NCBI GenBank assembly: GCA_964601215.1
Contig: CAZRMN010000002.1
Span: forward strand, 2,314-57,081
Source: an uncultured archaeon
Lineage (GTDB): Archaea; Aenigmatarchaeota; Aenigmatarchaeia; CG10238-14; SCSR01
Reading direction: 5' to 3'
Length of the DNA: 54,768 nt
A program made the position numbers and the translations under genes. Positions within the stretch are counted from its first letter, which is position 1; every line of letters starts with the position of its first letter. Below, piece by piece: positions 3,259-34,949 of this stretch. The notes below the pieces were generated by a model, which saw only the letters and a list, made by a program, of their open reading frames with translations, searched no databases and had not been told where the DNA came from.

Positions 3259-4100
3259 GAAATGTAATTTTCTTTTTCATTGGTATTTTTTTATTAACTC
3301 AAGCTTTAGGTTTATACGTCGGAGCTGAATATATAAATCTAATAAGAGTGGGGGCAGCTACTCCAGCCTTCGAAAATCCGGAAAATATTGAGAACTCGTT
3401 TATTCTAATTTTTTACATTCTTGTAACTACAGGAATAATAATTCTTGTTATAAAGTTCAAAAGAGTTTTGCTTAAGGTAATAGAAGCTTTAGCTGTATTC
3501 TTTGCCTCTTCTGTAACCTTTTGTGTTTTGTTTCCTGTAGAAATCTTTTACCTGCCAGTTTGTTTTTTCCTTTCACTAGCTCTAACTCTCTGGAAAGTTT
3601 TAAAGCCCAACGCAATAAATCAAAACTTAGCAGTAATTTTTTCAATCTCTGGAGCAGGCGCTTTACTTGGCGCGTCCCTAGGTTTTTTACCAGTTTTAAT
3701 ATTTATAATCGCTCTATGTGTTTATGATTTTATCTCTGTTTTTGTTACTAAACACATGAAATACATAGCAAAAGAAATTTCAAAAACACCTACAGCTTTT
3801 TCTGCAGCTTTTCCTTACAAATTTAAAAAACCGATTAAATTTGAAGTTGGAAAAAGAAAATTGAAAAAGAGATTTCACATCTACCAGCTTGGTGGTGGCG
3901 ATTTAGCAATACCTTTAGTTTTTTCAGTTTCTGTTTTAAAAGAATTTGGTTTGTTACAATCTATAGCTTCAATTCTTGGTGCATTAATTGCACTTTGTTT
4001 AACCATATACTTTGTCTTAAAAAAACCTGGAAGAGCTCTACCAGCTTTGCCATGGATAAGTTCTGGCATGCTGTTAGGGTTCTTAATTTCTCTTATTTAA
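3255..4100 (+). CDS. Presenilin/signal-peptide-peptidase family (GxGD) intramembrane aspartyl protease
   Basis: Multiple TM segments; YD (CVYDFISVF), LGGGD and PALP motifs intact. Confidence 0.9.
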   Translation: MRNVIFFFIGIFLLTQALGLYVGAEYINLIRVGAATPAFENPENIENSFILIFYILVTTGIIILVIKFKRVLLKVIEALAVFFASSVTFCVLFPVEIFYLPVCFFLSLALTLWKVLKPNAINQNLAVIFSISGAGALLGASLGFLPVLIFIIALCVYDFISVFVTKHMKYIAKEISKTPTAFSAAFPYKFKKPIKFEVGKRKLKKRFHIYQLGGGDLAIPLVFSVSVLKEFGLLQSIASILGALIALCLTIYFVLKKPGRALPALPWISSGMLLGFLISLI

Positions 4101-5409: not shown

Positions 5410-5758
5410 TAGTATGATATTTGAATATCTGGTAATGAATTTAACTGGAATAATAATTGGATTTTTTACTTTTTTGTGGCTTTTTGTTTCAAGTAATAGG
5501 TTTCTTAAGGGTATTGTTAAAAAATTCTTGGATAAAATAATGGCAGGAGTATTATTCCTGTATTTCAGTGTTGTATCATCTTTTATAATAGAACTTTACA
5601 GTTTATATGAAACTCCAGTAGAAATACCAAGATATTTATTCCTAATCATAGGATTTCTCTTTCTCTACTGGGCATCTTTGGATATAAACGAAATCTCAAA
5701 AGTTTTGGGTTTTAAATCCGAGGCTGTTCCAAAAAAATTGAAAAAAATATTAAAATAA
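5402..5758 (+). CDS. Small multi-pass membrane protein
   Basis: Three hydrophobic stretches and a basic tail; overlaps the upstream gene. Confidence 0.7.
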   Translation: MVDSMIFEYLVMNLTGIIIGFFTFLWLFVSSNRFLKGIVKKFLDKIMAGVLFLYFSVVSSFIIELYSLYETPVEIPRYLFLIIGFLFLYWASLDINEISKVLGFKSEAVPKKLKKILK

Positions 5759-5782
5759 ACGGTTTTTTAGACGGTTTTTATA

Positions 5783-7078
5783 GTGATTAAAATGAAAATA
5801 AAAGAAAAGACAATAGAAATACTTAAGCTTGGTTATGTGTGCGATAATTGCTTAGGAAGACAGTTTTCTCAATTACTTAGTGGTTATACCAATAAAGAAA
5901 GAGGAAAAATTATTCGAACCTTTATAGCTATGGTAATAGACTCAGGTGAAAAAATAAGTGTAGACTTCTCAAACTTTTATGGAATAAAGTTTTTAAATGA
6001 AAGAATAAAACCAGAAAAACCTAGAAAATGCGTGATATGCAAAGGGTTTTTTGAAGAAAAAATAGAAAAAATTGCAGAAAAAATTGTTAAAAAAATAAAA
6101 AAATATGAATTCAACACTTTTCTTATTGGTTCAATTTTAAGCGATGAATTATTGAAAGCTGAAGAAGAATTGTGGAAAAAAGTTGGTATTGAATTCTGCG
6201 AAACCATAAAATCTGAAATAAACAGAGAACTTGGAAAAATTGTCAAAAGAAAACTTAAAAAGAAATTTGAAACAAAAAATCCTGATATAACTATTATAGT
6301 TAACTTGAAGAAGAATAAAATAAAAGTTGAGATAAGAAGTTTGTATATCCTTGGCGAGTACAAAAAAATAGTTAGAGGGATACCACAAACCAAATGGACT
6401 TGTAAGTATTGTAAAGGAAAAGGATGTAAGTATTGTAATTGGAAAGGCAAGATGTACCCTACTTCTGTCCAAGAAATAATAGAAAAACCTTTTTTGAAAC
6501 TTACAAAAGGTGAAAAAACAAAATTTCACGGAGCTGGTAGAGAAGACATAGATGCTAGATGCTTGGATTACAGGCCATTTGTAATAGAAGTAGTTAAACC
6601 AATAAAAAGGAAGTTAAATCTCAAACAAATTGAAAAAGAAATAAACAAGTCAAAAAAAGTAAAAGTTAGAAAATTAAAGTTTACAACTAAAGAAACTATA
6701 AGAAAAATTAAAACAGCTAGGCTAGATAAAACATATTTTGCAGAAGTTTGGTTTGAAAATAATATTGAAAAAGATAAACTAAAAGAATTGAAAAGTTTGG
6801 CTAATGCGAAAATATTTCAAAAAACTCCTTTGAGAGTATTACACAGAAGAGCAAACAAACTAAGAAAAAGAAAAGTTAAAGAAATTTCTTGGAAAATTGT
6901 TGGAAGAAAAAAACTTGAACTGAAAATAAAAGCTGAAAGTGGGTTATATATTAAGGAACTTATTACTGGTGACAAAGGAAGAACTAAACCTAGTGTTGCC
7001 CAAATCCTAAACAATAAAGTTAAAAAGATAAACTTAGATGTTATAAAAATACATAAAAAGGGTGAGAAGTTTGGTTAA
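5783..7078 (+). CDS. pus10: tRNA pseudouridine(54/55) synthase Pus10
   Basis: N-terminal CDNCLGRQF, RGIPQTKW, FHGAGREDIDA catalytic motif, GLYIKELITGD. Confidence 0.96.
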   Translation: MIKMKIKEKTIEILKLGYVCDNCLGRQFSQLLSGYTNKERGKIIRTFIAMVIDSGEKISVDFSNFYGIKFLNERIKPEKPRKCVICKGFFEEKIEKIAEKIVKKIKKYEFNTFLIGSILSDELLKAEEELWKKVGIEFCETIKSEINRELGKIVKRKLKKKFETKNPDITIIVNLKKNKIKVEIRSLYILGEYKKIVRGIPQTKWTCKYCKGKGCKYCNWKGKMYPTSVQEIIEKPFLKLTKGEKTKFHGAGREDIDARCLDYRPFVIEVVKPIKRKLNLKQIEKEINKSKKVKVRKLKFTTKETIRKIKTARLDKTYFAEVWFENNIEKDKLKELKSLANAKIFQKTPLRVLHRRANKLRKRKVKEISWKIVGRKKLELKIKAESGLYIKELITGDKGRTKPSVAQILNNKVKKINLDVIKIHKKGEKFG

Positions 7079-9044: not shown

Positions 9045-9953
9045 TCAACTCTTTAACTTAACTTTCATCCCATCATAAGCTACTTTAACATTTGGAAAAA
9101 CTTTTTTTGCCTCTTCCTCTAATTCCTTTGGATTTTTATACCTTCTACTTATATGCGTTAAGATTAACTGCTTAACATTAGCTTTTTTAGCAATTTTTGC
9201 TGCTTGTTTTACATCTGCATGTGCTTTTCCCTCTTGTTCTTCAAGAAAAGTTGCATCGTGTATCAACAAATCAGCGTTCATTGAAATTTTAACTACATTC
9301 TCACAAGGTTTGGTATCTCCAGAATAAACAATTTTAAGTCCTGGTTTTAAATTTGCAACTTCTTCAATCTTAACTTCCCTTCCTTTATAAGTAGCTTTTC
9401 CATGTTTTTTCAGTTTTTTTAGCCAGTATCCTCTTCTTAATCCAAGCTTTTTTAATTTTTTAGGGTCAATGCTCCACCTATCCTTTTCTTTAAAGCAATA
9501 AGCTACTGCCGGAACTGTATGGAAAACAGGAATAGAAAAAACTTGGTATTCTTCTGTTTCATCTATCAAAGAAATTTCATTTCCTTCAAAAGGTACATTT
9601 ATAGCTTTAACAGGAAACCTACAACCGAAATATCCTAAATCTAAAATGTCCGAAACAAATTTTTCTGCTTCAGGAGCAAAAATTTTTAATTCTCTTTGTC
9701 TTTTTTCTAAGTTCATCGTTTGAATTAAAGGGATTAAACCAGCAAAATGATCAGCATGCCAATGAGTAATAAAAATCTTATCGATTTTCATAAAACTTAT
9801 TTTTGATTTCATTAATCGTAATTGAGTCCCTTCACCACAATCAAAAAGCAGGATATCTTTTTTTTCTCCAGAATATTCTAGAACTATGGCTGGATGACCC
9901 CTTTCCTTGCTAGGAATTCCTGAAACTGTACCCAAAAAGGTTATTTCTATCAT
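9045..9953 (-). CDS. rnz: Ribonuclease Z
   Basis: FLGTVSGIP, DCGEGTQ, THWHADH, YSGDT, LIHDATF, LTHISRRY. Confidence 0.96.
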   Translation of the reverse strand: MIEITFLGTVSGIPSKERGHPAIVLEYSGEKKDILLFDCGEGTQLRLMKSKISFMKIDKIFITHWHADHFAGLIPLIQTMNLEKRQRELKIFAPEAEKFVSDILDLGYFGCRFPVKAINVPFEGNEISLIDETEEYQVFSIPVFHTVPAVAYCFKEKDRWSIDPKKLKKLGLRRGYWLKKLKKHGKATYKGREVKIEEVANLKPGLKIVYSGDTKPCENVVKISMNADLLIHDATFLEEQEGKAHADVKQAAKIAKKANVKQLILTHISRRYKNPKELEEEAKKVFPNVKVAYDGMKVKLKS

Positions 9954-9998: not shown

Positions 9999-10280
9999 AT
10001 GTTTTTACCAATTTTTCTTCTTATGTCTTATGTGGATAAAATAAAAAGAATAAGAAAAGAACAGGAAAAAACTAGAAAATTGAATAGATCTGTTTATCTT
10101 CCTGAAAGACTAATCACAAAAAAAGTTTATGAAAATAATAACTTTAGAGTTGATGTATTGTGTTCACGTTTTCCTGGAATTGGGTGGCAAATAAGTTTAA
10201 ACAGTCTCAGGAAGGCTTTAGAAAAAAATGGGTATAAAGGAAAGCTGAGTAAGAAAATTTTAAAATATCTTTCAGATTAA
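9999..10280 (+). CDS. Hypothetical basic protein (start may be ATG 10023)
   Basis: Fills the gap between rnz and cca; Lys-rich composition like neighbouring genes. Confidence 0.55.
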   Translation: MFLPIFLLMSYVDKIKRIRKEQEKTRKLNRSVYLPERLITKKVYENNNFRVDVLCSRFPGIGWQISLNSLRKALEKNGYKGKLSKKILKYLSD

Positions 10281-11702
10281 ACTTTCCTTTTCAAAGTATT
10301 TTCTCAAGAATACGCCAAAATTTCTATCCTTTTTAACTATATCCATAATTTTTTCGTTCTCACAAATTATTTCAAATCCTTTAATTATTTGCTCTGCAAT
10401 ATAACCAGGTATACCTTTTGCTTTTAAAACCTCTAAGTTTTTACTTAAACTATCATAAATCTTTTCTCTTGCTGTTAAGAACTTTCTTTCAACTTCAACA
10501 CACCAATAGTTATCTTCAATAAAAGGTCCAGTTAAAGCTTGCTTTTTGTATTTTTTCAGAAACATTTCCGAATTCTTCAAGTTGAAAACTTTTGGACCAA
10601 TCCTTTTTTGAACTCTAGGAAGTTTGGAAACTTCCATCTCGAATAAAACTATTGCTAAATCTTTTTCGTTCGTATAAACATCTTTTCTTAAAACCTTAAA
10701 CTCATACTTGACTTCTTCCAGAATGTTTTGCATTCTATCTGCAAATCTTCTAAGTTGAGGCCAAAGTATGTCCGGGACGACTTTTGGTGGAGAGAATTTT
10801 ATCAAAATCAGTTCTGTTCTTCTCTTCATTTGATACAATATTAGCTCATTCTCGCTAATTGGTTCAATTTTTTTCTCGAAGAATACTTCTTCTCTTGGAT
10901 TTTCAAGGAATTCTTTCGCTACTTTCTTGAACTTGAAAAAATTATAAGCTGAAATTGCAGCAGCTGTATTCCTTTTTTTATCTGTTGGGTCAATTAAAAT
11001 GAAAACTTGGTTCCTGAACATTTTTTTAAGCTTCGAATAGTCTTTTTTCTTGTAATACTTTTTGAGGTCAACAACTTCTCCAGGTTTCCATTTTATAGCA
11101 TTCTTTAAAACGTTCAAAAATTTCTTGTATTTAATTATTAATAACTCGCACACATAGCCAGAAAATCCCTGAGTTTTTGCATCCGCACCATATATTCCAT
11201 TTGCTACGCAAAACTGTTTTAGAAGCCTTACTTCGTCAGACATTTTTTTAGTCAAGTTTTTTTCAACAAATTTCACATGAAAAGGAGTTCTATCAACTGC
11301 AGACTTAATTTTTTCTGGGGTTTCTACTTTAAAACACGGCACTATATCAACCCCTACTCCTCCAACATCTCCTCTGACATAAGGATGTTGGGCATATTCA
11401 ATTCTATACTTACCCTTCAACTTTTCGATAACTTCCTTTCCTATTTCTAACCCATACTTTTCAAGCTTTTCTTCTGAAAGTTTTGGGGAGAATAAGACAA
11501 AAACATCAAATTCAAGCTTTCTCGGCAGCCATGTATCTCTAGTAATACTACCAGCAAGGATAGCTTCGGCCTTATACTTCCTAGCTTCTTTTTTAGTAAT
11601 TTCCAGGGTTTTTTTAGCCAGATTTTTAAGTTTTTTCTCAGTTTTTTTATCTGGTTTAATCCTTTTTAAAACTTTGATTAAAATTTTTTTATAATTAGCC
11701 AT
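10272..11702 (-). CDS. cca: Archaeal class I CCA-adding enzyme
   Basis: AGSITRDTWL..EFDVF, YAQHPYV, VDIVPCF, SAVDRTPFH, GFSGYVCELL. Confidence 0.96.
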   Translation of the reverse strand: MANYKKILIKVLKRIKPDKKTEKKLKNLAKKTLEITKKEARKYKAEAILAGSITRDTWLPRKLEFDVFVLFSPKLSEEKLEKYGLEIGKEVIEKLKGKYRIEYAQHPYVRGDVGGVGVDIVPCFKVETPEKIKSAVDRTPFHVKFVEKNLTKKMSDEVRLLKQFCVANGIYGADAKTQGFSGYVCELLIIKYKKFLNVLKNAIKWKPGEVVDLKKYYKKKDYSKLKKMFRNQVFILIDPTDKKRNTAAAISAYNFFKFKKVAKEFLENPREEVFFEKKIEPISENELILYQMKRRTELILIKFSPPKVVPDILWPQLRRFADRMQNILEEVKYEFKVLRKDVYTNEKDLAIVLFEMEVSKLPRVQKRIGPKVFNLKNSEMFLKKYKKQALTGPFIEDNYWCVEVERKFLTAREKIYDSLSKNLEVLKAKGIPGYIAEQIIKGFEIICENEKIMDIVKKDRNFGVFLRKYFEKESLI

Positions 11703-11723: not shown

Positions 11724-13289
11724 TCAAATAAATTTTGAAACATAAGGGCCTTCAAGTTTATAACCAAGTTTATAGTAATACTCTCTTACTCCAACTCCAC
11801 TAATTATTAAAATTTTATTCTTATCAAACTCTTCTTTAGAAATCCTTTCTGCTTCTTCTAACAGCTTCCTTCCAAATCCTTTATGTTGGAACGCTTCTTC
11901 TTTGAATTCACCTACTGGCACTAAAGGCCCATAAACATGGAGCTCCCTGATTAAAGCTGTTTTATGCGTTATTTCTTTTCTAAAAGGTTTGAAAGGAATT
12001 CTTAACCTTAAAAAGGCTATGAGAACATCATTTTTTATATCCTCAAAACTTAGGAATATTTCTCTTCCCCTAGAAGCATTATAATCAAGTCTACAAAGCT
12101 TTACATGCTTGAAATCTACTTTTACTCCTTTCATAGCTTTATGACCAACTTCCCTGTATCTTATTTCTTTTATCCTTATTCCCATTTTTTCTGCCCTTCT
12201 TTCCACGATTTCCCTCAGGTTTCCTTTTTTAACTCCTGCAACTATTTGATTTGCTGGTATATCCCTTTGAACTCTTATTATTCTGCAATATTTTGGTATG
12301 TATTCCATAGCTTTAGCTATAAGTTCAGCAGCTTTTTCTTCTGTCAAAGCTTTATACTCACCCCTTTTCCACATCTCATAGAGTTGTGTACCTTTTATCA
12401 CAAGCGTCGGATAAATTTTTAAAGAATCTGGTCTAAAATCTTCATTTTCAAACAAAATTTTAAATTGTTTCAAATCACTTTCAAAGTCAACGCCTGGCAA
12501 ACCAGGCATAATATGATAAGTGCATTTTAAGCATGAATCCTTCAAAAATTGCGTGGCTTTTTTAACCTCTTCTATAGTATGGATTCTATTTACTCTTTTT
12601 AACACTTCTGGATAAACTGATTGAACACCTATTTCTACTCTAGTAGTTCCTAGCTGAAGCATTTGATTTATGTGCTTTTGAAAGCAATAGTCTGGTCTTG
12701 TCTCTATTGTTAAGCCAGAACATCTTATTCTAGCTTTTTCGTTTAGTTTTAAAGCTTCTTCCAAGTTTTTTCCGTCTCTTCCGTTTAAAGCATCAAAAAG
12801 CCTTTTAACAAACCACTCTTGATACTCTTTTTCTAAAGCGTTAAAAGTTCCACCTATTATTATTAATTCAACCTTGTCAACTGGGTGACCCATTAGTTTG
12901 TACTGTCTAATTCTATCTTTTACTTGCAAAAATGGATCATAATTATTCCTTATCGCTCTTTGAACTGCAGGCTCTAAACCAGTGTAGCTTTGTGGTGCTT
13001 TTTCGCCTTTTGGACAATAAATGCATTTGCCAGGACATTTTGCAGGTTTTGCTACAACAGTAATTACTGTCACACCTGAAATTGTTCTAGTAGGTTTCAT
13101 CAAAAGAAACTCTTTGAGCTTTTCTTTTTCTTTTGAGCTGCAAGCTTGGAGAATCTGAACACTCGTTGGCATGCTTTTTAGCTTGTATTTCTTACAAATC
13201 CTTTTAACTATTCTCCAGACCTTTTTTCTAGTAAGTTTTTCTTTCTTCAACTCCTCAACAATTTCCCTGAGTATTTTTCTTTTTTCCAT
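11724..13289 (-). CDS. elp3: Elp3 tRNA uridine(34) acetyltransferase (radical SAM + GNAT)
   Basis: CPGKCIYCP, IGGTF, ETRPD, RELHVYG, QHKGFG..LL, GVGVREYY. Confidence 0.96.
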   Translation of the reverse strand: MEKRKILREIVEELKKEKLTRKKVWRIVKRICKKYKLKSMPTSVQILQACSSKEKEKLKEFLLMKPTRTISGVTVITVVAKPAKCPGKCIYCPKGEKAPQSYTGLEPAVQRAIRNNYDPFLQVKDRIRQYKLMGHPVDKVELIIIGGTFNALEKEYQEWFVKRLFDALNGRDGKNLEEALKLNEKARIRCSGLTIETRPDYCFQKHINQMLQLGTTRVEIGVQSVYPEVLKRVNRIHTIEEVKKATQFLKDSCLKCTYHIMPGLPGVDFESDLKQFKILFENEDFRPDSLKIYPTLVIKGTQLYEMWKRGEYKALTEEKAAELIAKAMEYIPKYCRIIRVQRDIPANQIVAGVKKGNLREIVERRAEKMGIRIKEIRYREVGHKAMKGVKVDFKHVKLCRLDYNASRGREIFLSFEDIKNDVLIAFLRLRIPFKPFRKEITHKTALIRELHVYGPLVPVGEFKEEAFQHKGFGRKLLEEAERISKEEFDKNKILIISGVGVREYYYKLGYKLEGPYVSKFI

Positions 13290-14707: not shown

Positions 14708-14747
14708 AAGATAAATAGTTTAGAAACTAATTTAAAGGTGGGTCTCG

Positions 14748-15692
14748 ATTACACAGGAAACTTCTTCTTTCAAGGGTAGAGATATAATCAGTTCAAGAGA
14801 TTTTTCACGTGAAGATCTTGAACTAATCTTTTCTGTTACAGACGAGGTTATAGCAAAACCAAAAAAATTTGAAAAAAAGCTGGAGGACAAGATAATTTCT
14901 CTACTCTTTTTTGAACCGTCTACAAGAACTAGGGATAGTTTCCAAACAGCAATTTTCAGGATGGGGGGTAAAACTTTAGGCTTTCCTGAGCCAGGCATTT
15001 CTTCTGTTAAAAAAGGTGAAAGCCTTAGGGATACTATAAGCATGTACGATAGTTATAGCGATTTGATAATTATGAGACATAAATGGGCTGGAGCAGCGAA
15101 GTTGGCAAGCGAAGTTGCAAAAAAACCAGTAATAAATGCTGGAGATGGGAACAGGGAACATCCAACTCAAGCAATGTTAGACTTGTATACTATTAGAAAA
15201 GTTATTGGCAGGTTGGATTCACTTAAGGTTGGTATACTTGGAGATTTAAAATATGGTAGAACAGGATCTTCTCTTAGTTATGGTTTGTCAAATTTTAAAG
15301 ATGTGGAGCTATTTTTTATATCCCCTCCAATCTTACAAATGAGGCCAGAGGTAAAACTTTTCTTAACCCTTAAAGGTATAAAATTCCATGAGACTACCAA
15401 TCCTTATGATGTTATTAAATATTTGGATGTGCTTTATGTGACAAGAATTCAAAAAGAAAGGTTTTCCGACCCTTCTGAATATGAAAAAGTAAGGGGAGCT
15501 TATATAGTAGATGAAAAATTAATCAATGAAGGAAAACCAGAGCTTAAGGTTATGCACCCATTACCAAGAATAGATGAAATTCCTTATGAAGTTGATAAGC
15601 TTCCGCAAGCAACTTATATTGGACAAGCTGAAAACGGGCCTTACGTGAGACAAGCACTTATAGCTCTTGTCATGGGTGTTTATGATGAATGA
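14748..15692 (+). CDS. pyrB: Aspartate carbamoyltransferase catalytic subunit; start probably non-canonical ATT at 14748
   Basis: FKGRDIIS, FFEPSTRTR, HPTQAMLD, VTRIQKER, MHPLPR; frame open back to TAA 14733-35, so the track start at 14961 truncates conserved sequence. Confidence 0.93.
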   Translation: MTQETSSFKGRDIISSRDFSREDLELIFSVTDEVIAKPKKFEKKLEDKIISLLFFEPSTRTRDSFQTAIFRMGGKTLGFPEPGISSVKKGESLRDTISMYDSYSDLIIMRHKWAGAAKLASEVAKKPVINAGDGNREHPTQAMLDLYTIRKVIGRLDSLKVGILGDLKYGRTGSSLSYGLSNFKDVELFFISPPILQMRPEVKLFLTLKGIKFHETTNPYDVIKYLDVLYVTRIQKERFSDPSEYEKVRGAYIVDEKLINEGKPELKVMHPLPRIDEIPYEVDKLPQATYIGQAENGPYVRQALIALVMGVYDE

Positions 15693-16179
15693 TAAAAGAA
15701 AGGAGCTAATAGTAAAGAAAATTGAAAATGGAACAGTAATAGACCATATACCAAAGGGTAAGGGTATAGTGGTTATGAGAATTTTAAGAGTAGATTGCAA
15801 CACAGAATGCTATCTTTTGCAAAATGTTGAGAGTAAAAAATTGGGCAGGAAAGATATAGTCAAAATAGTTGGAAGATATCCAAGCAAAGAAGAGGTAGAT
15901 GATATTGCAATAGTTGCACCTACAGCCACCATAAATTATGTTAAAAATTGGGGAATTTTTGATAAGTATAGAGTTAAACTACCAGAAAAAATAGAAGGTT
16001 TAATTAAGTGTCCAAACAACTTATGCATAACTAATCATGAAAGAGGTATGAAAACTGTTTTTAAAGTTTATCAATTCAAGAATGAGCTACTAAAAAATTT
16101 GTATGGAGACGTTTTACTTCAATGTTCTTATTGTGATACTTTAGTAAAGCATGAAAATATAGAGGAACTTTTGATATAG
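15685..16179 (+). CDS. pyrI: Aspartate carbamoyltransferase regulatory subunit
   Basis: KIENGTVIDHI, KDIVKI, APTATIN, CPNNLCIT...CSYC zinc site. Confidence 0.95.
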   Translation: MNDKRKELIVKKIENGTVIDHIPKGKGIVVMRILRVDCNTECYLLQNVESKKLGRKDIVKIVGRYPSKEEVDDIAIVAPTATINYVKNWGIFDKYRVKLPEKIEGLIKCPNNLCITNHERGMKTVFKVYQFKNELLKNLYGDVLLQCSYCDTLVKHENIEELLI

Positions 16180-16265
16180 CCCCGCCCGGATTCGAACCGG
16201 GGTCGCGAGGTCCAGAGCCTCGCATGCTTGACCATTCTGCTCCTGAAGATCTACACCACGGGGCT
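16177..16265 (-). tRNA. tRNA-Gln(CTG) with a 16-nt D-loop insertion (putative intron 15/16)
   Basis: AGCCCCG/CGGGGCT acceptor stem, CGAGG-CTCTGGA-CCTCG, CCCGG-TTCGAAT-CCGGG; extra ATCTTCAGGAGCAGAA between G15 and T16. Confidence 0.92.
16235..16250 (-). other. Putative non-canonical tRNA intron at 15/16
   Basis: Removal restores an ordinary AG-TGGTCAA D-loop; length fits BHB geometry (1 + 9-nt hairpin + 4 + 2) with 3 of 4 central pairs. Confidence 0.75.
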
Positions 16266-16403
16266 ACATTTTAAATATATAAGAGGAATAATATTAAAAA
16301 GGTGTAAGGAATGAAGGGTGAATTACAAACATTCTAGCTTATCTATTTCTCTTTTAAACCAATTCTTAAGTTTAAAAATTAAAAGTATTTTAAGGGGATT
16401 AAA

Positions 16404-19183: not shown

Positions 19184-21913
19184 CTATCCCCTCTTGCCTT
19201 GAGATTTATACAATTCTCTAACTCTTTGAATAGTATCTGCCTCGCTAGGCCCTTTATCATCCCTTATCCTCACTAATCGAGGAAACCTTAAAGCAAAACC
19301 AGATTCATAGTTTGGAGATTTTTGAATTTCTTGATAAGCTACCTCTACTACAACCTTTGGTTTGATTTTAACTTCTCTTCCCCTTTCCTCTTCTATTAAT
19401 TTTTTAAGAATTTTTGTCATATTTTCGAATTGCTCTTCTGTTAAACCTGTACCCATCATACCACAAGGCAAAAATTTTCCTGTATCAGGGTCTCTGCAAG
19501 CTAGAACATAAGAGCTAAGCCAGTTTGCTCTAGAACCAACACCCCATGTTGCACCAACTATAACCAGATCTAAAGTTTCCATTATTGGTTTAATTTTGTA
19601 CATTGTACCAACATGCCTCCCAAAAACATAAGGAGAATCCAAAACCTTGAGCATGAGCCCTTCTTGATTTTCCTTTAAAGCTTGTTGATAAAACTTTTCA
19701 AGTTTTTTCACATCACCAGTAATTATTTGTTTTGCTAACTCAAACTTTCCAGGAATTACTTTAATTGTTCTTTCCAAAATCTTCCTTCTTTCCCTGAAAG
19801 GTTTGTCAAAAAGTTCTTTTCCTTCCAGGTAAACTATGTCGAAGAGATGAATTTGAATGGGTATTTCTTTTACCATTTTTTCAATATCATATTTCCTATG
19901 AATTCTTTGGGACAAAACTTGGAATGGTAAGGGGGAACCAGTTTTTGGGTCTATTCCAAGAACTTCCCCTTCTACTATGCATTCTTTTGCTTTAATTCCT
20001 TTTTTACATAGCTCAACTAAGTCAGGAAATTGTTTTGTAACATTTTCTTGTCTTCTTGTAAAAAGCCAGATTTTATCTCCTTTTTTATGAATTTGGCAAT
20101 TATGCATAGCTAGCATGGTTGTACAATAGCTCTGATCATCCTCGACCTCTAAATTATAAAAATTCGACCTAGGATCAGGATACTTTACTTCTTTTTTCCT
20201 TAAAATCTTAACGAATACTTTATTTCCAACTATTCTTGCATAAGTATTACTTTTTGGCAGAATTAACTTGTAATAAGTTCTTCCTTTTACCCTTATTTTC
20301 TTTATACCTATTATCTTTCTATGTTTAAGTGCAAGAAATTGAACCATCATTGCAATAGTTTTTTCTTTTGTAGTAATAGTAACAGTACCATTTTTGTCCG
20401 TACTACCGTCAGCTTCGACCAAACCTTGCAAAAATTCCAAAAACCTTTTTTTATCAAGGCCTATAAACCATTCAGGAAGAGTCTTACCCTTCCATCCTCT
20501 TCTCTTATGTCTAAAATTATGAGAAAGCCAAATCATAAAAGGTTTATCAGTCCAGTAGATATCAATAGCTCCAGGGTAGTTATAATTAGAAATATTTTTT
20601 ATTCCAAATTCTTTTCTTATGATTCTTTTATACTTTTCACAAAGTTTTTTTTCAGTTTTTTTATTAAATTGAAGACCTATTCTAAAATTTCCATTAAAAG
20701 TATTTGTATAACCATCACCTATCCAAAAACCCAGAAATCTGAAAAAATTCTTATTTAGGGTAAACTCCTTTTTGTATCCATCTCTTGTGGTAAGAACCAT
20801 CTTTTGTGGTATATTTTTAGAACTAATTTTTGGGATCGGAAACACTACTTCAGCACTCTTAGGAACTTTTTCAACAGGTACCCATCTTGGTTTCCCGTCT
20901 AAATTAATTAAAATCTCGTGCCCTTCTGTAATTTTGAATTCGTTTCCGAGATAAGTAGAAATTTTAAAAACTCTTTCTCCTTTTCTTTTTTTTCTTTTTA
21001 GTTTTGCCACTACTTTTTTAAATCTACCAGTATGTGTAAGAACATAATCATTAACTTTCACATCTTTTACAGAAATTAAACCCTTATTCTTGACATATAT
21101 AGGTGTTAGCCCAGAAATGCACCTAACACCATCGTATTTGAATTCGGCAGCAACCTTCCCAAATTCATCCACAACTTCTTTAATATTTTCAGCTTTTTCT
21201 CCTAGCATTACTTGAATAGGCCTACCAAGCTGGACTTTAACTTTTTTTAATCCTTTTATCCCTTCCTCTTTTGCTATTCTTGCAATTTCACCAAAATCGG
21301 AGAGAATGTTCCAAGCATACTCTACAACTCGAGTTATTTTCTCTTTCTCTTTTTTGTCCATTCCTTCTTTCAACAAAAATGCTTTTATTATCGCATCTCT
21401 TATAATTCCTTCTGCCACCCCCACTCTTAGTTCCCCAAGAATGGTTCTAGTTATATATCTTGCCTCTTTTGGTTTTGCTGAAATAAGTAATTGAACGATT
21501 AAATCTAGCTTTTTGTCCTGAGAACCAACCCCAGTTATAAAAGGCAATTTTTGTAAATTCTTAAAAACTAAGTCTACTGTTAACTTCTTCTTCACAAGAG
21601 GTATTTGTTTTCTTGATTTAACACATTCCTCTGCTGTTAACCCCAAATCTCCAGTTTTTTTGAATATTTCTTCTACTTTTGCGGTACTAAAACCTGCAGC
21701 TTTAGAAATTGCTCTTATCATCATTTGCGTAGCAATCCCTAATTCATAGCCTAAAAATTTGGGGAATACTACTCCTTGGACTAATAATACAACTTTTGGT
21801 AGGTCTTCTGTTGGTGTTTTTTTGAGTAAATTTGCAAGAATATTAGTTTTTTCAATTTTACCAGTTATCTTTTCCAATTTTTCATAAGTTTCTGCTAAGA
21901 TCGAATAATCCAT
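19184..21913 (-). CDS. lig: ATP-dependent DNA ligase precursor with intein (about 568 aa after splicing)
   Basis: EFKYDGVR, then after the intein CQIH, IVEGE, FDIVY, EGLMLK, YKIK, DLVIVG, LRFPR. Confidence 0.97.
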   Translation of the reverse strand: MDYSILAETYEKLEKITGKIEKTNILANLLKKTPTEDLPKVVLLVQGVVFPKFLGYELGIATQMMIRAISKAAGFSTAKVEEIFKKTGDLGLTAEECVKSRKQIPLVKKKLTVDLVFKNLQKLPFITGVGSQDKKLDLIVQLLISAKPKEARYITRTILGELRVGVAEGIIRDAIIKAFLLKEGMDKKEKEKITRVVEYAWNILSDFGEIARIAKEEGIKGLKKVKVQLGRPIQVMLGEKAENIKEVVDEFGKVAAEFKYDGVRCISGLTPIYVKNKGLISVKDVKVNDYVLTHTGRFKKVVAKLKRKKRKGERVFKISTYLGNEFKITEGHEILINLDGKPRWVPVEKVPKSAEVVFPIPKISSKNIPQKMVLTTRDGYKKEFTLNKNFFRFLGFWIGDGYTNTFNGNFRIGLQFNKKTEKKLCEKYKRIIRKEFGIKNISNYNYPGAIDIYWTDKPFMIWLSHNFRHKRRGWKGKTLPEWFIGLDKKRFLEFLQGLVEADGSTDKNGTVTITTKEKTIAMMVQFLALKHRKIIGIKKIRVKGRTYYKLILPKSNTYARIVGNKVFVKILRKKEVKYPDPRSNFYNLEVEDDQSYCTTMLAMHNCQIHKKGDKIWLFTRRQENVTKQFPDLVELCKKGIKAKECIVEGEVLGIDPKTGSPLPFQVLSQRIHRKYDIEKMVKEIPIQIHLFDIVYLEGKELFDKPFRERRKILERTIKVIPGKFELAKQIITGDVKKLEKFYQQALKENQEGLMLKVLDSPYVFGRHVGTMYKIKPIMETLDLVIVGATWGVGSRANWLSSYVLACRDPDTGKFLPCGMMGTGLTEEQFENMTKILKKLIEEERGREVKIKPKVVVEVAYQEIQKSPNYESGFALRFPRLVRIRDDKGPSEADTIQRVRELYKSQGKRG
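20099..21121 (-). mobile_element. 341-aa intein with LAGLIDADG homing endonuclease
   Basis: Block A CISGLTPIYV, block B ITEGH, LGFWIGDG and LQGLVEADG, block F FYNLEVEDDQSY, terminal HN followed by Cys+1. Confidence 0.95.
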
Positions 21914-24378: not shown

Positions 24379-24492
24379 CCCCGCTTAGCTCAACGGTAGA
24401 GCGACCGGCTGTAGATAAGTGCTTTGGCACTTGTTGGTAGCCATCGCTCAGCACATACCGGTAGGTTGGGAGTTCAAATCTCCCAGCGGGGA
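24379..24492 (+). tRNA. tRNA-Tyr(GTA) with a 42-nt intron at 37/38 (24415-24456)
   Basis: C1-G72 acceptor CCCCGCT/AGCGGGG, ACCGG-CTGTAG[intron]A-CCGGT, GGGAG-TTCAAAT-CTCCC. Confidence 0.95.
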
Positions 24493-24533
24493 CTTAACGT
24501 TAAGTTTAAAAAAGCTTGAACCAATTAATAAAT

Positions 24534-24653
24534 TGGTTGGCGACCAAAGCGGACGGGAACGACCTGGTCCCATTCCGAACCCAGAAGTCAAACCGTCCAG
24601 CGGTGTGGGCTGTACTCTCCGAAAGGAGGGGAACTCCACAACGTTGCCAACCA
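24534..24653 (+). rRNA. rrf: 5S rRNA
   Basis: Terminal helix TGGTTGGCGAC/GTTGCCAACCA; conserved CCCATTCCGAACCCAGAAGTCAA; 120 nt. Confidence 0.95.
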
Positions 24654-24702
24654 TTCATTTTTTTAAATTTTTAAGATGTATGGAATAAAATATTATAAGA
24701 AT

Positions 24703-24796
24703 GCCTCGGTCGTCTAGGGGCCTAGGATGCAGGCCTGTCACGCCTGAGATGGAAAACCATCGGCGAACGACACGGGTTCAAATCCCGTCCGAGGCG
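24703..24796 (+). tRNA. tRNA-Asp(GTC) with a 21-nt intron at 43/44
   Basis: GCCTCGG/CCGAGGC plus G73, CAGGC-CTGTCAC-GCCTG, ACGGG-TTCAAAT-CCCGT; 25 nt in place of the 4-nt variable region. Confidence 0.94.
24747..24767 (+). other. Non-canonical tRNA intron at 43/44 with BHB-like motif
   Basis: Central helix CGCC/GGCG, bulges TG^A and AA^C, intron hairpin GATGG-AAAA-CCATC; excision leaves CGAC. Confidence 0.88.
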
Positions 24797-33791: not shown

Positions 33792-34949
33792 TCAAATTGT
33801 AATTACCTCTGTCTCTTTTAAAGCATCTTTAACAAGCTTTTTAATTTTAAGATTTTTCTCAAGAGTTTTTATTTTTTTAGGGTCTGATTTAGTTGCAGGA
33901 TGCTTTGGAACAAACAAACTGCAACAGTCTTCTTGAGGTTTTATTGAAATACCATAAGTCCCTATTTTTTTAGCCAAGTCAATTATTTCAACTTTATCCA
34001 TTCCCAAAAGAGGTCTAAAAACTTGCAATTTTGTAGCTTCAGCAATAGTTGTAATATTATCTAAAGTTTGCGAAGAAACTTGAGCAAGGTTCTCTCCTGT
34101 TACTAAAGCTTTTATTCCTTCTTTTTTCGCAATTTCTTCAGAAATTCTAAGCATGAATCTTCTGTAGACGATTATCCTATACTTTGCAGGAATTTTTGTT
34201 TTGACTTGAGTTTGAATTTTATGAAAAGGAATGAAATAAACTTTGCTTTTAAACTGAAATTGGTTTAAAACTTTTACTAACTCTTTCGTTTTTTCAATAC
34301 TTGCTTTAGAAACTAAAGGGAAAGAATGGAAGTGAACAAAAACAACTTTACAACCACGCTTCATCATTAGCCAAGCTGCAACAGGAGAGTCTATCCCACC
34401 TGAAATTAAGGATAAAACTTTTCCAGAAGTACTTACAGGTAAACCACCAAGTCCTTTAATTATTTCAGTATAAACATAAGTATCTTTTCCTCTGACCTCA
34501 ACAAAAATTTCTTTGTCAGGATTTTTAAGGTTAACTTTCCTTTTCACCACACTTCCAAGAACGCTTGCTAATTCCTGACTAGTATACTTATGTTCACCAA
34601 CTCTTTTCACTCTAACAGCAAAAGTTTCATTTTTCTTTATCCATTTTTCATAGTTTTTTTCGATAAAACTTTTAATTCTTTCTAATTTTGAAGTTTTTAA
34701 ATGAAATGCTGGAGAAAAAGAAACAATACCAAAAATTTTTTTTAAAATTTCACAAGATTCTTCTAAATCCCAAACTTTAAGAAAAATTCTTCCTCTTTCT
34801 CTTTTTATTTTTACTTTTATGTTTTTTAGCCTGAAAGCTCTTTTGATATTTTCAACAAGTTTTTTTTCATACATTTTTGCGACAAACTCTGACTTAAGAA
34901 ATATCTCGCCATATCTTACAAGAATTAATCTTTCAAGCATAAAACCCAC
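33792..34949 (-). CDS. thiI: tRNA 4-thiouridine synthase ThiI (THUMP + PP-loop, no rhodanese domain)
   Basis: RYGEIFLKS, GGLPVSTSG, SGGIDSPVA, GENLAQVSSQT, EDCC. Confidence 0.95.
   Translation of the reverse strand: MGFMLERLILVRYGEIFLKSEFVAKMYEKKLVENIKRAFRLKNIKVKIKRERGRIFLKVWDLEESCEILKKIFGIVSFSPAFHLKTSKLERIKSFIEKNYEKWIKKNETFAVRVKRVGEHKYTSQELASVLGSVVKRKVNLKNPDKEIFVEVRGKDTYVYTEIIKGLGGLPVSTSGKVLSLISGGIDSPVAAWLMMKRGCKVVFVHFHSFPLVSKASIEKTKELVKVLNQFQFKSKVYFIPFHKIQTQVKTKIPAKYRIIVYRRFMLRISEEIAKKEGIKALVTGENLAQVSSQTLDNITTIAEATKLQVFRPLLGMDKVEIIDLAKKIGTYGISIKPQEDCCSLFVPKHPATKSDPKKIKTLEKNLKIKKLVKDALKETEVITI

What the first reader, a model, noticed from the sequence alone, without database searches (positions are those of the whole stretch)
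16177..16265. tRNA-Gln(CTG) with a 16-nt D-loop intron at 15/16
Seen: insertion ATCTTCAGGAGCAGAA between G15 and T16. It fits BHB arithmetic (bulge AG^A, mini-hairpin TCT-TCA-GGA, strand GCAG against G10-T13 with 3 of 4 pairs, bulge AA^T), but the outer helix is poor. Known: D-loop introns are rare and are reported mainly from Thermoproteales and some ultrasmall ARMAN-type archaea. Inference: it needs a splicing endonuclease that accepts relaxed motifs; standard scanners may miss or mis-call this gene.
Basis: partly seen in the sequence, partly recalled or inferred. Interest (0 to 1): 0.66.

Follow-up and report, generated by a model that had tools for sequence, protein, structure and literature searches.

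The report
tRNA-Gln gene with D-loop intron
This is a real glutamine tRNA gene of a hydrothermal-vent DPANN archaeon, interrupted by a 16-base intron in an unusual place (the D-loop); the same intron site turns up in dozens of related archaea, so it is a conserved but ordinary-in-kind example of archaeal tRNA splicing that standard gene finders mis-call.

Summary
On the minus strand, 16177-16265 encodes tRNA-Gln(CUG) with ATCTTCAGGAGCAGAA inserted between G15 and U16. Removing it gives a clean 73-nt cloverleaf, 64/73 identical to the spliced ortholog beside thrS in sister Aenigmatarchaeota.

In this one gene the bulge-helix-bulge (BHB) fit is weak: 3 of 4 central pairs, no outer helix, chance about 0.01-0.02 with the junction fixed, and a free BHB scan ranks spurious sites higher.

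Comparison settles it. Forty-two distinct tRNA-Gln genes (CUG and UUG) from Hadarchaeota, Aenigmatarchaeota and a 'Nanoarchaeota'-labelled MAG carry a 13-30 nt insert at this junction. All share one layout: A14-G15|N bulge, variable hairpin, four bases pairing nt 10-13 (36/42 perfect, only in that register), two bases, junction. Helices are 94.9% paired, with compensatory changes at 5 of 7 pairs. The outer helix is absent in all 42.

Best reading: an EndA-spliced, relaxed HBh'-type intron (confidence 0.85). Splicing itself was not observed; metatranscriptome contigs show only insert-containing precursors. EndA is not in the window.

ARAGORN mis-calls the gene and Rfam scores it below threshold.

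Novelty: a new member, at a site missing from the one review list that could be checked, of a known kind.

The parts
16177..16265 (-). tRNA-Gln(CUG) gene, 89 nt including the intron. A1 is at 16265 and the discriminator A73 at 16177. No CCA is encoded.
   Evidence: Sequence. ARAGORN on the spliced form gives a regular tRNA-Gln(ctg). It is the positional ortholog of the thrS-adjacent tRNA-Gln(CUG) in L001/L003/L005/L184.
16251..16265 (-). 5' exon, tRNA nt 1-15: acceptor 5' strand AGCCCCG, U8 G9, D-stem 5' strand GUGU, A14 G15.
   Evidence: AGCCCCGUG was fixed by the search pattern. The variable D-stem 5' strand covaries with its partners.
16235..16250 (-). 16-nt intron AUCUUCAGGAGCAGAA, at position 15/16.
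   Evidence: The identical allele is in independent metagenome contigs: L128 and run X1. Homologous inserts of 13-30 nt sit at the same junction in 42 distinct genes.
16253..16256 (-). H(a): nt 10-13 (GUGU), the exon strand of the central 4-bp BHB helix. In the mature tRNA it is the 5' strand of the D stem.
   Evidence: Register test; covariation at 11:29 and 12:28 of alignment A1.
16250..16252 (-). 5' bulge A14 G15 | A(i1). Predicted 5' cleavage lies between 16251 and 16250.
   Evidence: Constant geometry in 42/42 genes: the hairpin starts one base after G15. The rule of two exon-side bulge bases is validated by the 37/38 introns of L001/L005.
16241..16249 (-). Inner hairpin h': UCU-UCA-GGA (3 bp, 3-nt loop).
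   Evidence: All three h' pairs show compensatory changes across the family, 95.2% paired.
16237..16240 (-). H(b): GCAG, the intron strand of the central helix. It makes 3 of 4 pairs here (U11-A, G12-C, U13-G; G10xG mismatch).
   Evidence: GCAC, GCCC or GGAC give 4/4 in 36 of 42 relatives. GCAG recurs in L086 and L173.
16234..16236 (-). 3' 'bulge' A A | U16. Predicted 3' cleavage lies between 16235 and 16234. It is not closed by an outer helix.
   Evidence: Outer helix is 0 bp in 42/42 genes.
16177..16234 (-). 3' exon: rest of the D loop (UGGUCAA), D-stem 3' strand GCAU, anticodon arm (anticodon CUG at 16213-16215), 4-nt variable loop CGAC, T arm, acceptor 3' strand, A73.
16269..16300 (-). AT-rich upstream region with TATA-like elements (UUUUUAAUAUUAUU at -35..-22; UUAUAUAUUUAAAA at -17..-4). 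Candidate archaeal promoter.
   Evidence: Sequence only. Not tested.

Best explanation
Window 16177-16265 (minus strand) is a functional tRNA-Gln(CUG) gene of a hydrothermal-vent Candidatus Aenigmatarchaeota (DPANN) genome. It is interrupted by a 16-nt protein-spliced intron between nt 15 and 16 of the D loop.

Proposed mechanism:
1. In the precursor, the 5' strand of the future D stem (nt 10-13) pairs with four intron bases (GCAG) instead of with nt 22-25.
2. Together with a small intron hairpin, this forms a relaxed bulge-helix-bulge motif of the HBh' type: a closed 3-nt 5' bulge (A14 G15 | A), a 4-bp central helix, and a 3' site (A A | U16) that no outer helix closes.
3. The archaeal splicing endonuclease EndA cuts after the second base of each bulge, and an RtcB-type ligase joins G15 to U16.
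4. Nt 10-13 then re-pair with nt 22-25 to form the normal D stem. The CCA-adding enzyme, encoded at 10272-11702, completes the tRNA.

Shown here: the gene, the insert, its exact junction, the conserved and covarying motif geometry in 42 homologs, transcription of homologous insert-containing precursors, and that the spliced product is a canonical tRNA-Gln.

Inferred: excision itself, the enzymes, and the L3-loop EndA type.
For: 1. Junction. Deleting exactly these 16 nt gives AGCCCCGUGGUGUAGUGGUCAAGCAU..., a 73-nt cloverleaf with U8, A14, G15, G18G19 and a perfect 7-bp acceptor stem. It is 64/73 identical to the spliced thrS-adjacent tRNA-Gln(CUG) of sister genomes. Synteny is the same: Elp3 ... 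tRNA-Gln, thrS, TrmB, DNA ligase, nitroreductase.

2. Family. Scans that left the insert, nt 10-13 and nt 22-25 unconstrained found 42 distinct tRNA-Gln genes (22 CUG, 16 UUG, 4 not called) with a 13-30 nt insert at the same junction. They come from a Hadesarchaea MAG, a 'Nanoarchaeota' MAG, an Aenigmatarchaeota MAG (titles) and a Hadarchaeota contig.

3. Geometry. Nt 10-13 pair with the 4-nt block that ends 2 nt before the 3' junction: mean 3.86 of 4, 36/42 perfect. Every other register scores <=2.6. The hairpin always starts 1 nt after G15.

4. Covariation. 94.9% of cells are paired, against <=51.5% in slid registers. Five of 7 pairs have changes on both sides. The covariation score is 0.622 against 0.164 for shuffles, with 0/500 shuffles reaching it. 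Examples are GUGU/GCAC, GGGU/GCCC and GUCU/GGAC.

5. Insert versus exons. Insert sequence and length vary freely while the exons are nearly invariant.

6. Same genome. tRNA-Asp carries a 21-nt insert with the same layout at 43/44, and tRNA-Tyr a 42-nt intron at 37/38.

7. Sister genomes. They place same-style inserts at about 29/30 and 37/38 of the orthologous gene, and the 37/38 one confirms the cleavage rule.

8. Transcription. Homologous insert-containing genes appear as leader-bearing precursors at depth about 700-1470 in hot-spring metatranscriptomes.

9. Literature. D-loop introns are cleaved by broad-specificity EndA in vitro (PMC3241643; PMC5829648, an HBh' intron at 20b/21). L3-loop EndAs in DPANN and Hadesarchaea go with heavy tRNA disruption (PMC5829648).
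Against: - No spliced RNA was seen. The only transcript data are assembled contigs of related genes, and these contain the insert.
- In this gene the central helix has a G10xG mismatch and the hairpin is only 3 bp. There is no outer helix, so strict-specificity EndA would not be expected to cut it.
- The minimum-free-energy fold at 37 C does not form the BHB. It keeps the D stem and pairs G15-A-U-C with G18-G19-U20-C20a. The z-score against shuffles is only -1.45. That alternative pairing is possible in 33/42 family members.
- EndA and RtcB are not in the window or in any fetched locus, so the enzyme type is taken from the literature.
- Whether the genome has another tRNA-Gln(CUG) copy is unknown.
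Confidence: 0.85

Rival explanations
1. The 16 nt are not removed. The mature tRNA-Gln carries an expanded 25-nt D loop with a small extra hairpin.
For: Abundant metatranscriptome contigs of homologous genes contain the insert, and no spliced contig was found. The MFE fold keeps the D stem and folds the insert into an extra stem. A G15-i3: G18-C20a pairing is possible in 33/42 genes.
Against: - The insert-containing contigs also carry 5' leader sequence, so they are precursors. Standard RNA-seq under-represents modified mature tRNA.
- Insert length (13-30 nt) and sequence vary freely. What is conserved is exactly the BHB geometry: 1 nt, hairpin, 4-nt complement of nt 10-13, 2 nt. A retained loop gives no reason for that pattern.
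- The H helix competes with the D stem, so the two cannot coexist in a mature tRNA.
- The alternative stem would sequester G18G19, and it shows no compensation where nt 20 is C.
- Sister genomes have a normal 9-nt D loop in the orthologous gene.
- From memory, not tested: D-loop size is an identity element for the GatDE/GatCAB transamidation route that makes Gln-tRNA-Gln.
Confidence: 0.07
2. The locus is a decaying tRNA pseudogene that picked up a random insertion, and another gene supplies tRNA-Gln(CUG).
For: The central helix is imperfect (3/4) and scanners score the gene poorly. The rest of the genome was not available to check for a second copy.
Against: - All stems are intact after removal, with no other lesions.
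- The identical allele is present in independent metagenomes.
- It sits at the conserved thrS-adjacent position.
- Relatives with ThrRS 70% and 52% identical (L184, L171) keep an insert at the same junction of the thrS-adjacent gene.
- The GCAG variant recurs in other low-GC members (L086, L173).
- A TATA-like region lies upstream.
Confidence: 0.05
3. The intron lies elsewhere. Following Rfam's local alignment, GCAG...AAGC is the D stem, and a 17-nt insert (UGGUGUAGAUCUUCAGG) sits between the acceptor stem (nt 7) and the base preceding that D stem.
For: The Rfam local hit (23.3 bits) aligns model positions 9-63 this way.
Against: - That D stem has two non-standard pairs (A-A, G-A), needs two extra bases before the anticodon stem, and loses U8.
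- Intron-less relatives read GUGGUG(U/C)AG(U/C)GG(U/C)CAAGCAU, which matches the 15/16 solution exactly.
- The family register test supports only the 15/16 junction.
Confidence: 0.02

Closest known systems
Methanopyrus kandleri pre-tRNA-Glu(UUC) D-loop intron at 20b/21, a relaxed HBh' motif (PMC5829648)
   Same: It is a non-canonical intron inside the D loop. It has the relaxed HBh' form, with a well-defined bulge, central helix and inner helix but one site not enclosed. It needs a broad-specificity EndA for efficient removal.
   Different: The position is 15/16, not 20b/21. The tRNA is Gln, not Glu. The central helix here uses the D-stem 5' strand (nt 10-13). This one is conserved across dozens of Hadarchaeota and DPANN genes, and no cleavage assay exists for it.
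Aeropyrum pernix pre-tRNA-Thr2(UGU) D-loop intron (PMC3241643)
   Same: It is a D-loop intron removed by EndA alone in vitro. It is cut more slowly than anticodon-loop introns and depends on a specificity loop in EndA.
   Different: The A. pernix intron forms a canonical BHB, whereas here the outer helix is absent. The enzyme there is the (alpha-beta)2 type with the Crenarchaea-specific loop. DPANN and Hadesarchaea are reported to have alpha4-type EndA with a different (L3) loop. That comes from the literature and was not tested here.
Non-canonical and multiple tRNA introns of Thermoproteales and ARMAN-2 (PMC4090602, PMC3239211)
   Same: These are short BHB/HBh'/hBH introns at many positions. 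Intron positions turn over between close relatives, and isoacceptors carry near-identical introns, as with the UUG and CUG genes of L033.
   Different: The positions listed in the review are 3/4, 20/21, 22/23, 25/26, 29/30, 30/31, 45/46, 53/54, 56/57 and 59/60 (the list ends in 'etc.'). 15/16 is not among them. The host lineages differ: Aenigmatarchaeota, 'Nanoarchaeota' and Hadarchaeota.
Canonical 37/38 archaeal tRNA intron with a strict hBHBh' motif
   Same: It has the same 3-4-3 core logic and the same cleavage rule, after the second bulge base. The presumed EndA and RtcB machinery is the same.
   Different: The position differs, the outer helix h is missing, and the central helix of this gene has one mismatch.

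Membership tests
Archaeal EndA-spliced (BHB-type) tRNA introns | Central 4-bp helix between exon and intron, flanked by two bulges on opposite strands, each 3' of its helix strand. | tested here: met
   This gene has 3 of 4 pairs (G10xG). In the family 36/42 have 4/4, and only in this register. Covariation is seen at 2 of the 4 H pairs and all 3 h' pairs.
Archaeal EndA-spliced (BHB-type) tRNA introns | Removing the intron at the predicted sites restores a canonical cloverleaf tRNA. | tested here: met
   ARAGORN gives a regular tRNA-Gln(ctg) only after removal. The product is 64/73 identical to the spliced ortholog L001.
Archaeal EndA-spliced (BHB-type) tRNA introns | The intron is absent from the mature tRNA in vivo, or is cleaved by EndA in vitro. 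| not testable with these tools
   Only assembled metatranscriptome contigs of related genes were available. They show insert-containing, leader-bearing precursors and no spliced contig.
Archaeal EndA-spliced (BHB-type) tRNA introns | The genome encodes a splicing endonuclease, of broad specificity for relaxed motifs, and an RNA ligase. | not tested
   No EndA or RtcB is among the window's 40 scanned ORFs, and a tblastn probe found none in 1.35 Mb of fetched loci. The rest of the genome was not available. The literature reports L3-loop EndA in DPANN and Hadesarchaea (PMC5829648).
Strict hBHBh' motif (substrate of the alpha4 and alpha'2 EndA types, which require the strict motif) | An outer helix h closes the 3' bulge, giving a 3-4-3 motif with both flanking helices. 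| tested here: not met
   The outer helix is 0 bp in this gene and in 42/42 family members. The motif is therefore the relaxed HBh' type.
tRNA-Gln (archaeal) | Anticodon CUG or UUG in a 7-nt loop, a cloverleaf with conserved U8, A14, G18G19 and T-loop, and A1-U72 with A73. | tested here: met
   Sequence and ARAGORN call. The role of A1-U72/A73 as identity elements is recalled from the literature and was not tested.
Self-splicing group I / group II introns in tRNA genes | A catalytic RNA core of hundreds of nucleotides. | tested here: not met
   The insert is 16 nt, and there is no Rfam intron hit.

The most novel reading that the evidence does not exclude
The 15/16 intron is not a sporadic insertion. 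On this reading it is an old, conserved feature of tRNA-Gln, in both CUG and UUG isoacceptors, shared by Hadarchaeota and several DPANN lineages.

It would be maintained by selection next to G15, the archaeosine site and Levitt-pair base. It always lacks an outer helix, so the L3-loop EndA of these lineages would have to recognise a bulge-helix-hairpin plus the tRNA body.

The intron, or its competition with the D stem and with G18G19, could then order D-loop modification or folding before splicing. Its shared presence would reflect either deep common ancestry or horizontal spread together with the EndA variant.
Probability: 0.25. Interest if true: 0.55.

Novelty: new member of a known kind. 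Interest (0 to 1): 0.4.

Why it matters
In practice, this gene and its relatives are missed or mis-typed by common scanners. Rfam scores this gene below threshold. ARAGORN calls it with a wrong 5' end, calls the L001 ortholog tRNA-Ser(aga), and finds nothing for L184. DPANN and Hadarchaeota MAGs will therefore look as if they lack tRNA-Gln, and completeness or codon-usage inferences will be off.

Biologically, it adds a well-supported, phylogenetically broad example of a relaxed HBh' intron. The site, 15/16, is absent from the position list of the one review that could be checked. The central helix is built from the D-stem strand. The intron occurs in the same two groups reported to have L3-loop EndAs.

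That gives a natural, covariation-defined substrate set of 42 sequences for testing what the L3 loop recognises. The thrS-adjacent gene carries 15/16, 15/16 plus 37/38-38/39, or 29/30 plus 37/38 introns in different Aenigmatarchaeota, which makes it a compact case of intron turnover at an orthologous locus.

Tried and rejected
1. An exact-pattern scan of genome contigs for this gene with a 0-30 nt D-loop gap found nothing. The source genome is not in that collection, and its exact ThrRS is not on record either.
It had to be filtered by T-arm presence, leaving 5 true genes, so the genome-level taxonomic census is incomplete.
3. A single-sequence BHB scan is unspecific and ranks tRNA-stem artefacts above the true site for Gln. 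I rejected it as evidence.
4. My hand-written conformer energies were mis-indexed in the T arm and are not used. Only the MFE results are cited.
5. I looked for spliced joints in hot-spring metatranscriptome contigs and found none. Contigs drop minor forms and mature tRNA is poorly sampled, so this is not taken as evidence against splicing.
6. I searched for EndA or RtcB in the window with Pfam (40 of 52 ORFs), and in all fetched loci with a remembered M. jannaschii EndA sequence. There were no hits.
7. A text search for '15/16' is impossible because the slash is not searchable. Prior description in non-searchable papers (for example the SPLITSX/Thermoproteales surveys) or in GtRNAdb cannot be excluded.
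8. I considered Rfam's alternative D-arm parse and rejected it (see rival explanations).
9. The alternative G15-i3: G18-C20a helix from the MFE fold is possible in 33/42 genes. It has no covariation support and is uncompensated where nt 20 is C. I keep it as an unexplained competitor fold.

Full report
**What is at the coordinates**

The feature lies on the minus strand. Read from 16265 down to 16177 it is an 89-nt tRNA-like gene:

AGCCCCG UG GUGU AG [AUCUUCAGGAGCAGAA] UGGUCAA GCAU G CGAGG CUCUGGA CCUCG CGAC CCCGG UUCGAAU CCGGG CGGGGCU A

The bracketed 16 nt (window 16235-16250) sit between G15 and U16. Everything else is a regular class-I tRNA:
- a 7-bp acceptor stem;
- U8, A14, G15 and G18G19;
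- a 4-bp D stem (GUGU/GCAU);
- a 5-bp anticodon stem with loop CUCUGGA (anticodon CUG, 16213-16215);
- a 4-nt variable loop;
- a GC-rich T arm with UUCGAAU;
- discriminator A73, with no encoded CCA.

Standard scanners fail on it:
- ARAGORN reports a 74-nt 'tRNA-Gln' at 16177-16250 whose acceptor stem is built from intron bases.
- Rfam's tRNA model does not reach its gathering score.
- A permissive Rfam search gives only a 23.3-bit local match covering model positions 9-63.

With the 16 nt deleted, ARAGORN returns a well-formed tRNA-Gln(ctg).

**Organism and context**

The window is about 32% G+C. Its closest matches are hydrothermal-vent metagenomes. Its ThrRS is 72-76% identical to proteins labelled Candidatus Aenigmatarchaeota.

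Around the gene lie, in order:
- Elp3;
- an AsnRS-like protein, pyrB and pyrI (the pyrI stop codon overlaps the tRNA 3' end on the other strand);
- tRNA-Gln;
- thrS, transcribed divergently;
- TrmB;
- an intein-containing DNA ligase;
- a nitroreductase.

Sister Aenigmatarchaeota contigs L001, L003 and L005 have the same Elp3 ... thrS-TrmB-ligase-nitroreductase order, with a tRNA gene in the same place and orientation before thrS. That gene is also tRNA-Gln(CUG). Its D loop is a normal 9 nt, and it carries two other inserts, about 11 nt near 29/30 and 12 nt at 37/38. ARAGORN mis-types it as a 98-nt tRNA-Ser(aga). After removal of both inserts it calls tRNA-Gln(ctg).

The spliced products of the window gene and of L001 are both 73 nt and 64/73 identical, with identical anticodon stem-loops. 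Two differently interrupted orthologs converge on one mature sequence only if the inserts are removed at the proposed junctions.

**Is the BHB more than chance?**

For this gene alone, only modestly.
- The junction is fixed independently by homology. Given that, shuffled or random 16-mers reach at least 3 of 4 central pairs plus a 3-bp or longer hairpin in 1.1-1.7% of trials.
- A free BHB scan of the sequence is uninformative. Ordinary tRNA stems give equal or better pseudo-motifs, and the 15/16 site is not in the top six.
- The thermodynamic prediction does not produce the BHB either. The MFE keeps the D stem and pairs G15-A-U-C with G18-G19-U20-C20a. Its energy is unremarkable (z = -1.45).

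**Comparative evidence**

Contigs from hot-spring metatranscriptomes laid on the locus revealed related tRNA-Gln sequences with different inserts at the same place. I then ran two collection scans that left the insert, nt 10-13 and nt 22-25 unconstrained. After filtering and de-duplication they gave 46 distinct genes. Forty-two of them have a 13-30 nt insert between G15 and N16: 22 CUG, 16 UUG and 4 whose anticodon my parse did not call.

Named sources are:
- a Hadesarchaea MAG, where both the UUG and CUG genes carry the same 26-nt insert;
- a 'Nanoarchaeota' MAG;
- an Aenigmatarchaeota MAG from groundwater;
- contig L147, which is Hadarchaeota by its RpoA' (about 80% identity).

L128 is the window's own organism in another sample.

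All 42 genes share one layout: A14 G15 | one base (A in 40, G in 2), a hairpin of variable length and sequence, four bases, two bases (mostly AA), | Y16.
- The four bases pair with nt 10-13 at a mean of 3.86 of 4 positions, and 36/42 are perfect. No other register exceeds 2.6.
- On a register-fixed alignment of 28 distinct sequences, the central helix plus the first three hairpin pairs are 94.9% paired, against at most 51.5% in slid registers.
- Five of 7 pairs show changes on both sides.
- The covariation score is 0.622 against 0.164 for shuffles, and 0/500 shuffles reach it.
- Nt 11 and 12 covary with the intron strand (U-A to G-C, G-C to C-G), and in parallel with the D-stem 3' strand.

The intron strand therefore stands in for nt 22-25 in the precursor.

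The outer helix is absent in all 42 genes. The motif is the relaxed HBh' form, not the strict hBHBh'. The window gene belongs to a low-GC minority (with L086 and L173) whose intron strand is GCAG, which leaves G10 unpaired.

**Check of the cleavage rule**

The 37/38 insert of L001/L005 gives CUCU(32-35)/GGAG at 4/4, bulges G36 G37 | U and A A | A38. Removal restores the 7-nt anticodon loop. This confirms, within this phylum, that cleavage follows the second base of each bulge. That is the rule which places the window intron at 15/16.

The same layout recurs elsewhere:
- in the window's tRNA-Asp (24747-24767, after nt 43: UG|A, GAUGG/CCAUC hairpin, GGCG pairing CGCC 4/4, AA|C, no outer helix);
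- in a 10/11 insert of tRNA-Gln in L167, L137 and L157.

Three of the four tRNA genes in the window are interrupted, two of them at non-canonical sites.

**Expression**

Only assembled contigs were available. In two hot-spring metatranscriptomes, contigs of 94-132 nt at depth about 700-1470 cover homologous tRNA-Gln genes. Neighbouring kb-sized contigs have depth about 5-60. The tRNA contigs include the insert, and at least one extends 34 nt into the 5' leader.

These are therefore abundant precursors. No spliced contig was seen. Contigs lose minor forms, and mature modified tRNA is poorly captured by such libraries. So this shows transcription but says nothing either way about excision.

**Mechanism and enzymes**

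The window encodes tRNase Z, a CCA-adding enzyme, Pus10, Elp3 and ThiI. It does not encode EndA or RtcB, and none was found in the fetched loci.

From the literature:
- D-loop introns are removed by EndA alone in A. pernix (PMC3241643).
- An HBh' D-loop intron at 20b/21 in M. kandleri needs a broad-specificity enzyme (PMC5829648).
- Alpha4-type EndAs with an 'L3' loop occur in several DPANN lineages and in Hadesarchaea, together with a marked rise in tRNA gene disruption (PMC5829648).

Those are the same two groups in which this intron family was found. I infer that such an enzyme cuts at G15|A and A|U16, that a ligase joins the exons, and that nt 10-13 then switch partners to form the D stem.

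**Rival explanations**

- Retention of the insert as an enlarged D loop is unlikely. What is conserved is precisely the splice-motif geometry, while insert length and sequence drift. The central helix and the D stem are mutually exclusive. The alternative stem would bury G18G19. The orthologous gene in sister genomes has a normal D loop.
- A pseudogene is unlikely. The exons are intact, the position is conserved, the identical allele occurs in independent samples, and thrS-adjacent genes in L184 and L171 (ThrRS 70% and 52% identical) have an insert at the same junction.
- Rfam's alternative D-arm parse is inferior on every count.

**Comparison with what is known, and novelty**

The kind of element is well established: a short protein-spliced intron at a non-canonical site with a relaxed BHB. 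D-loop cases have been shown biochemically.

Position 15/16 is not in the review list of non-canonical positions that I could read (PMC4090602). I also found no description of a conserved tRNA-Gln D-loop intron in Hadarchaeota or DPANN.

I file it as a new member of a known kind, with moderate interest. Its value is in annotation and in providing a covariation-defined substrate family for the L3-loop EndAs. It does not point to a new mechanism.

Noticed in passing
window 24703-24796 (+), insert 24747-24767: tRNA-Asp(GUC) has an intact anticodon loop but a 21-nt insert (AGAUGGAAAACCAUCGGCGAA) after nt 43. Its layout matches the Gln intron: UG|A, 5-bp hairpin, GGCG pairing CGCC 4/4, AA|C, no outer helix. 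ARAGORN calls a normal-length tRNA-Asp after removal.
   Followed up: partly
window 24379-24492 (+): tRNA-Tyr(GUA) has a 42-nt insert at 37/38. ARAGORN missed it and Rfam found it. The insert holds two GCAC blocks that could each pair with CUGU (nt 32-35), so there may be two alternative or nested splice motifs.
   Followed up: partly
window 24379-24796 (+): There is a compact tRNA-Tyr - 5S rRNA (24536-24652) - tRNA-Asp cluster.
   Followed up: no
window 19184-21913 (-): The ATP-dependent DNA ligase is 909 aa, with an intein and LAGLIDADG domain inserted. The orthologs in L001/L003 are 568 aa without it, and L005/L006 have a 967-aa intein-containing form.
   Followed up: partly
window ~14736-15692 (+): pyrB: the conserved N-terminal ~75 codons (…FKGRDIISSRDFSREDLELIF…) are open in frame, but no ATG/GTG/TTG occurs before 14961. 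This suggests either an unusual start codon or a truncated or mis-assembled 5' end.
   Followed up: partly
window 5783-7078, 9045-9953, 10272-11702, 11724-13289, 33792-34949: Several tRNA maturation and modification genes lie in the window: Pus10, tRNase Z, CCA-adding enzyme, Elp3-like radical SAM and ThiI. There is no EndA or RtcB.
   Followed up: yes
window 16177-16179: The pyrI stop codon (TAG, + strand) overlaps the last three bases of the tRNA-Gln gene (U72 and A73 among them) on the opposite strand.
   Followed up: yes
L167 (+6035), L137 (-365), L157 (+11249): In these metagenome contigs tRNA-Gln carries an insert at 10/11 instead of 15/16 (for example AGAAGCAAAUCUUCACGGAA). The central helix is made from acceptor nt 5-7 plus U8 (CCGU with [A/G]CGG, 4/4). 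L137 and L157 have a further insert in the anticodon arm.
   Followed up: partly
L001 3537-3634 (-), L005 ~3540-3636 (-), L184 1868-1971 (+): The thrS-adjacent tRNA-Gln(CUG) differs between Aenigmatarchaeota. It has inserts at ~29/30 + 37/38 (L001/L003/L005), 15/16 + 37/38-38/39 (L184), or 15/16 only (window). This is intron turnover at one orthologous locus.
   Followed up: partly
L061 ~5709-5800 (+), Woesearchaeota MAG: tRNA-Gln(UUG) has a different 12-nt D-loop insert, flanked by a GGCCAA repeat, so its junction is ambiguous.
   Followed up: no
window 16234-16252 (-) and 42 family members: G15 plus the first three intron bases can pair with G18-G19-Y20-C20a in 33/42 genes. This is the fold RNAfold prefers. 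There is no covariation support, and the pairing is uncompensated where nt 20 is C. Whether it is a competitor fold or functional is unexplained.
   Followed up: partly
L154 (+2602): This is an odd tRNA-Gln-like gene whose 'insert' contains an anticodon-loop-like CCAGGCUUUGGAU. It may be a rearranged or multiply interrupted gene. I did not parse it.
   Followed up: no
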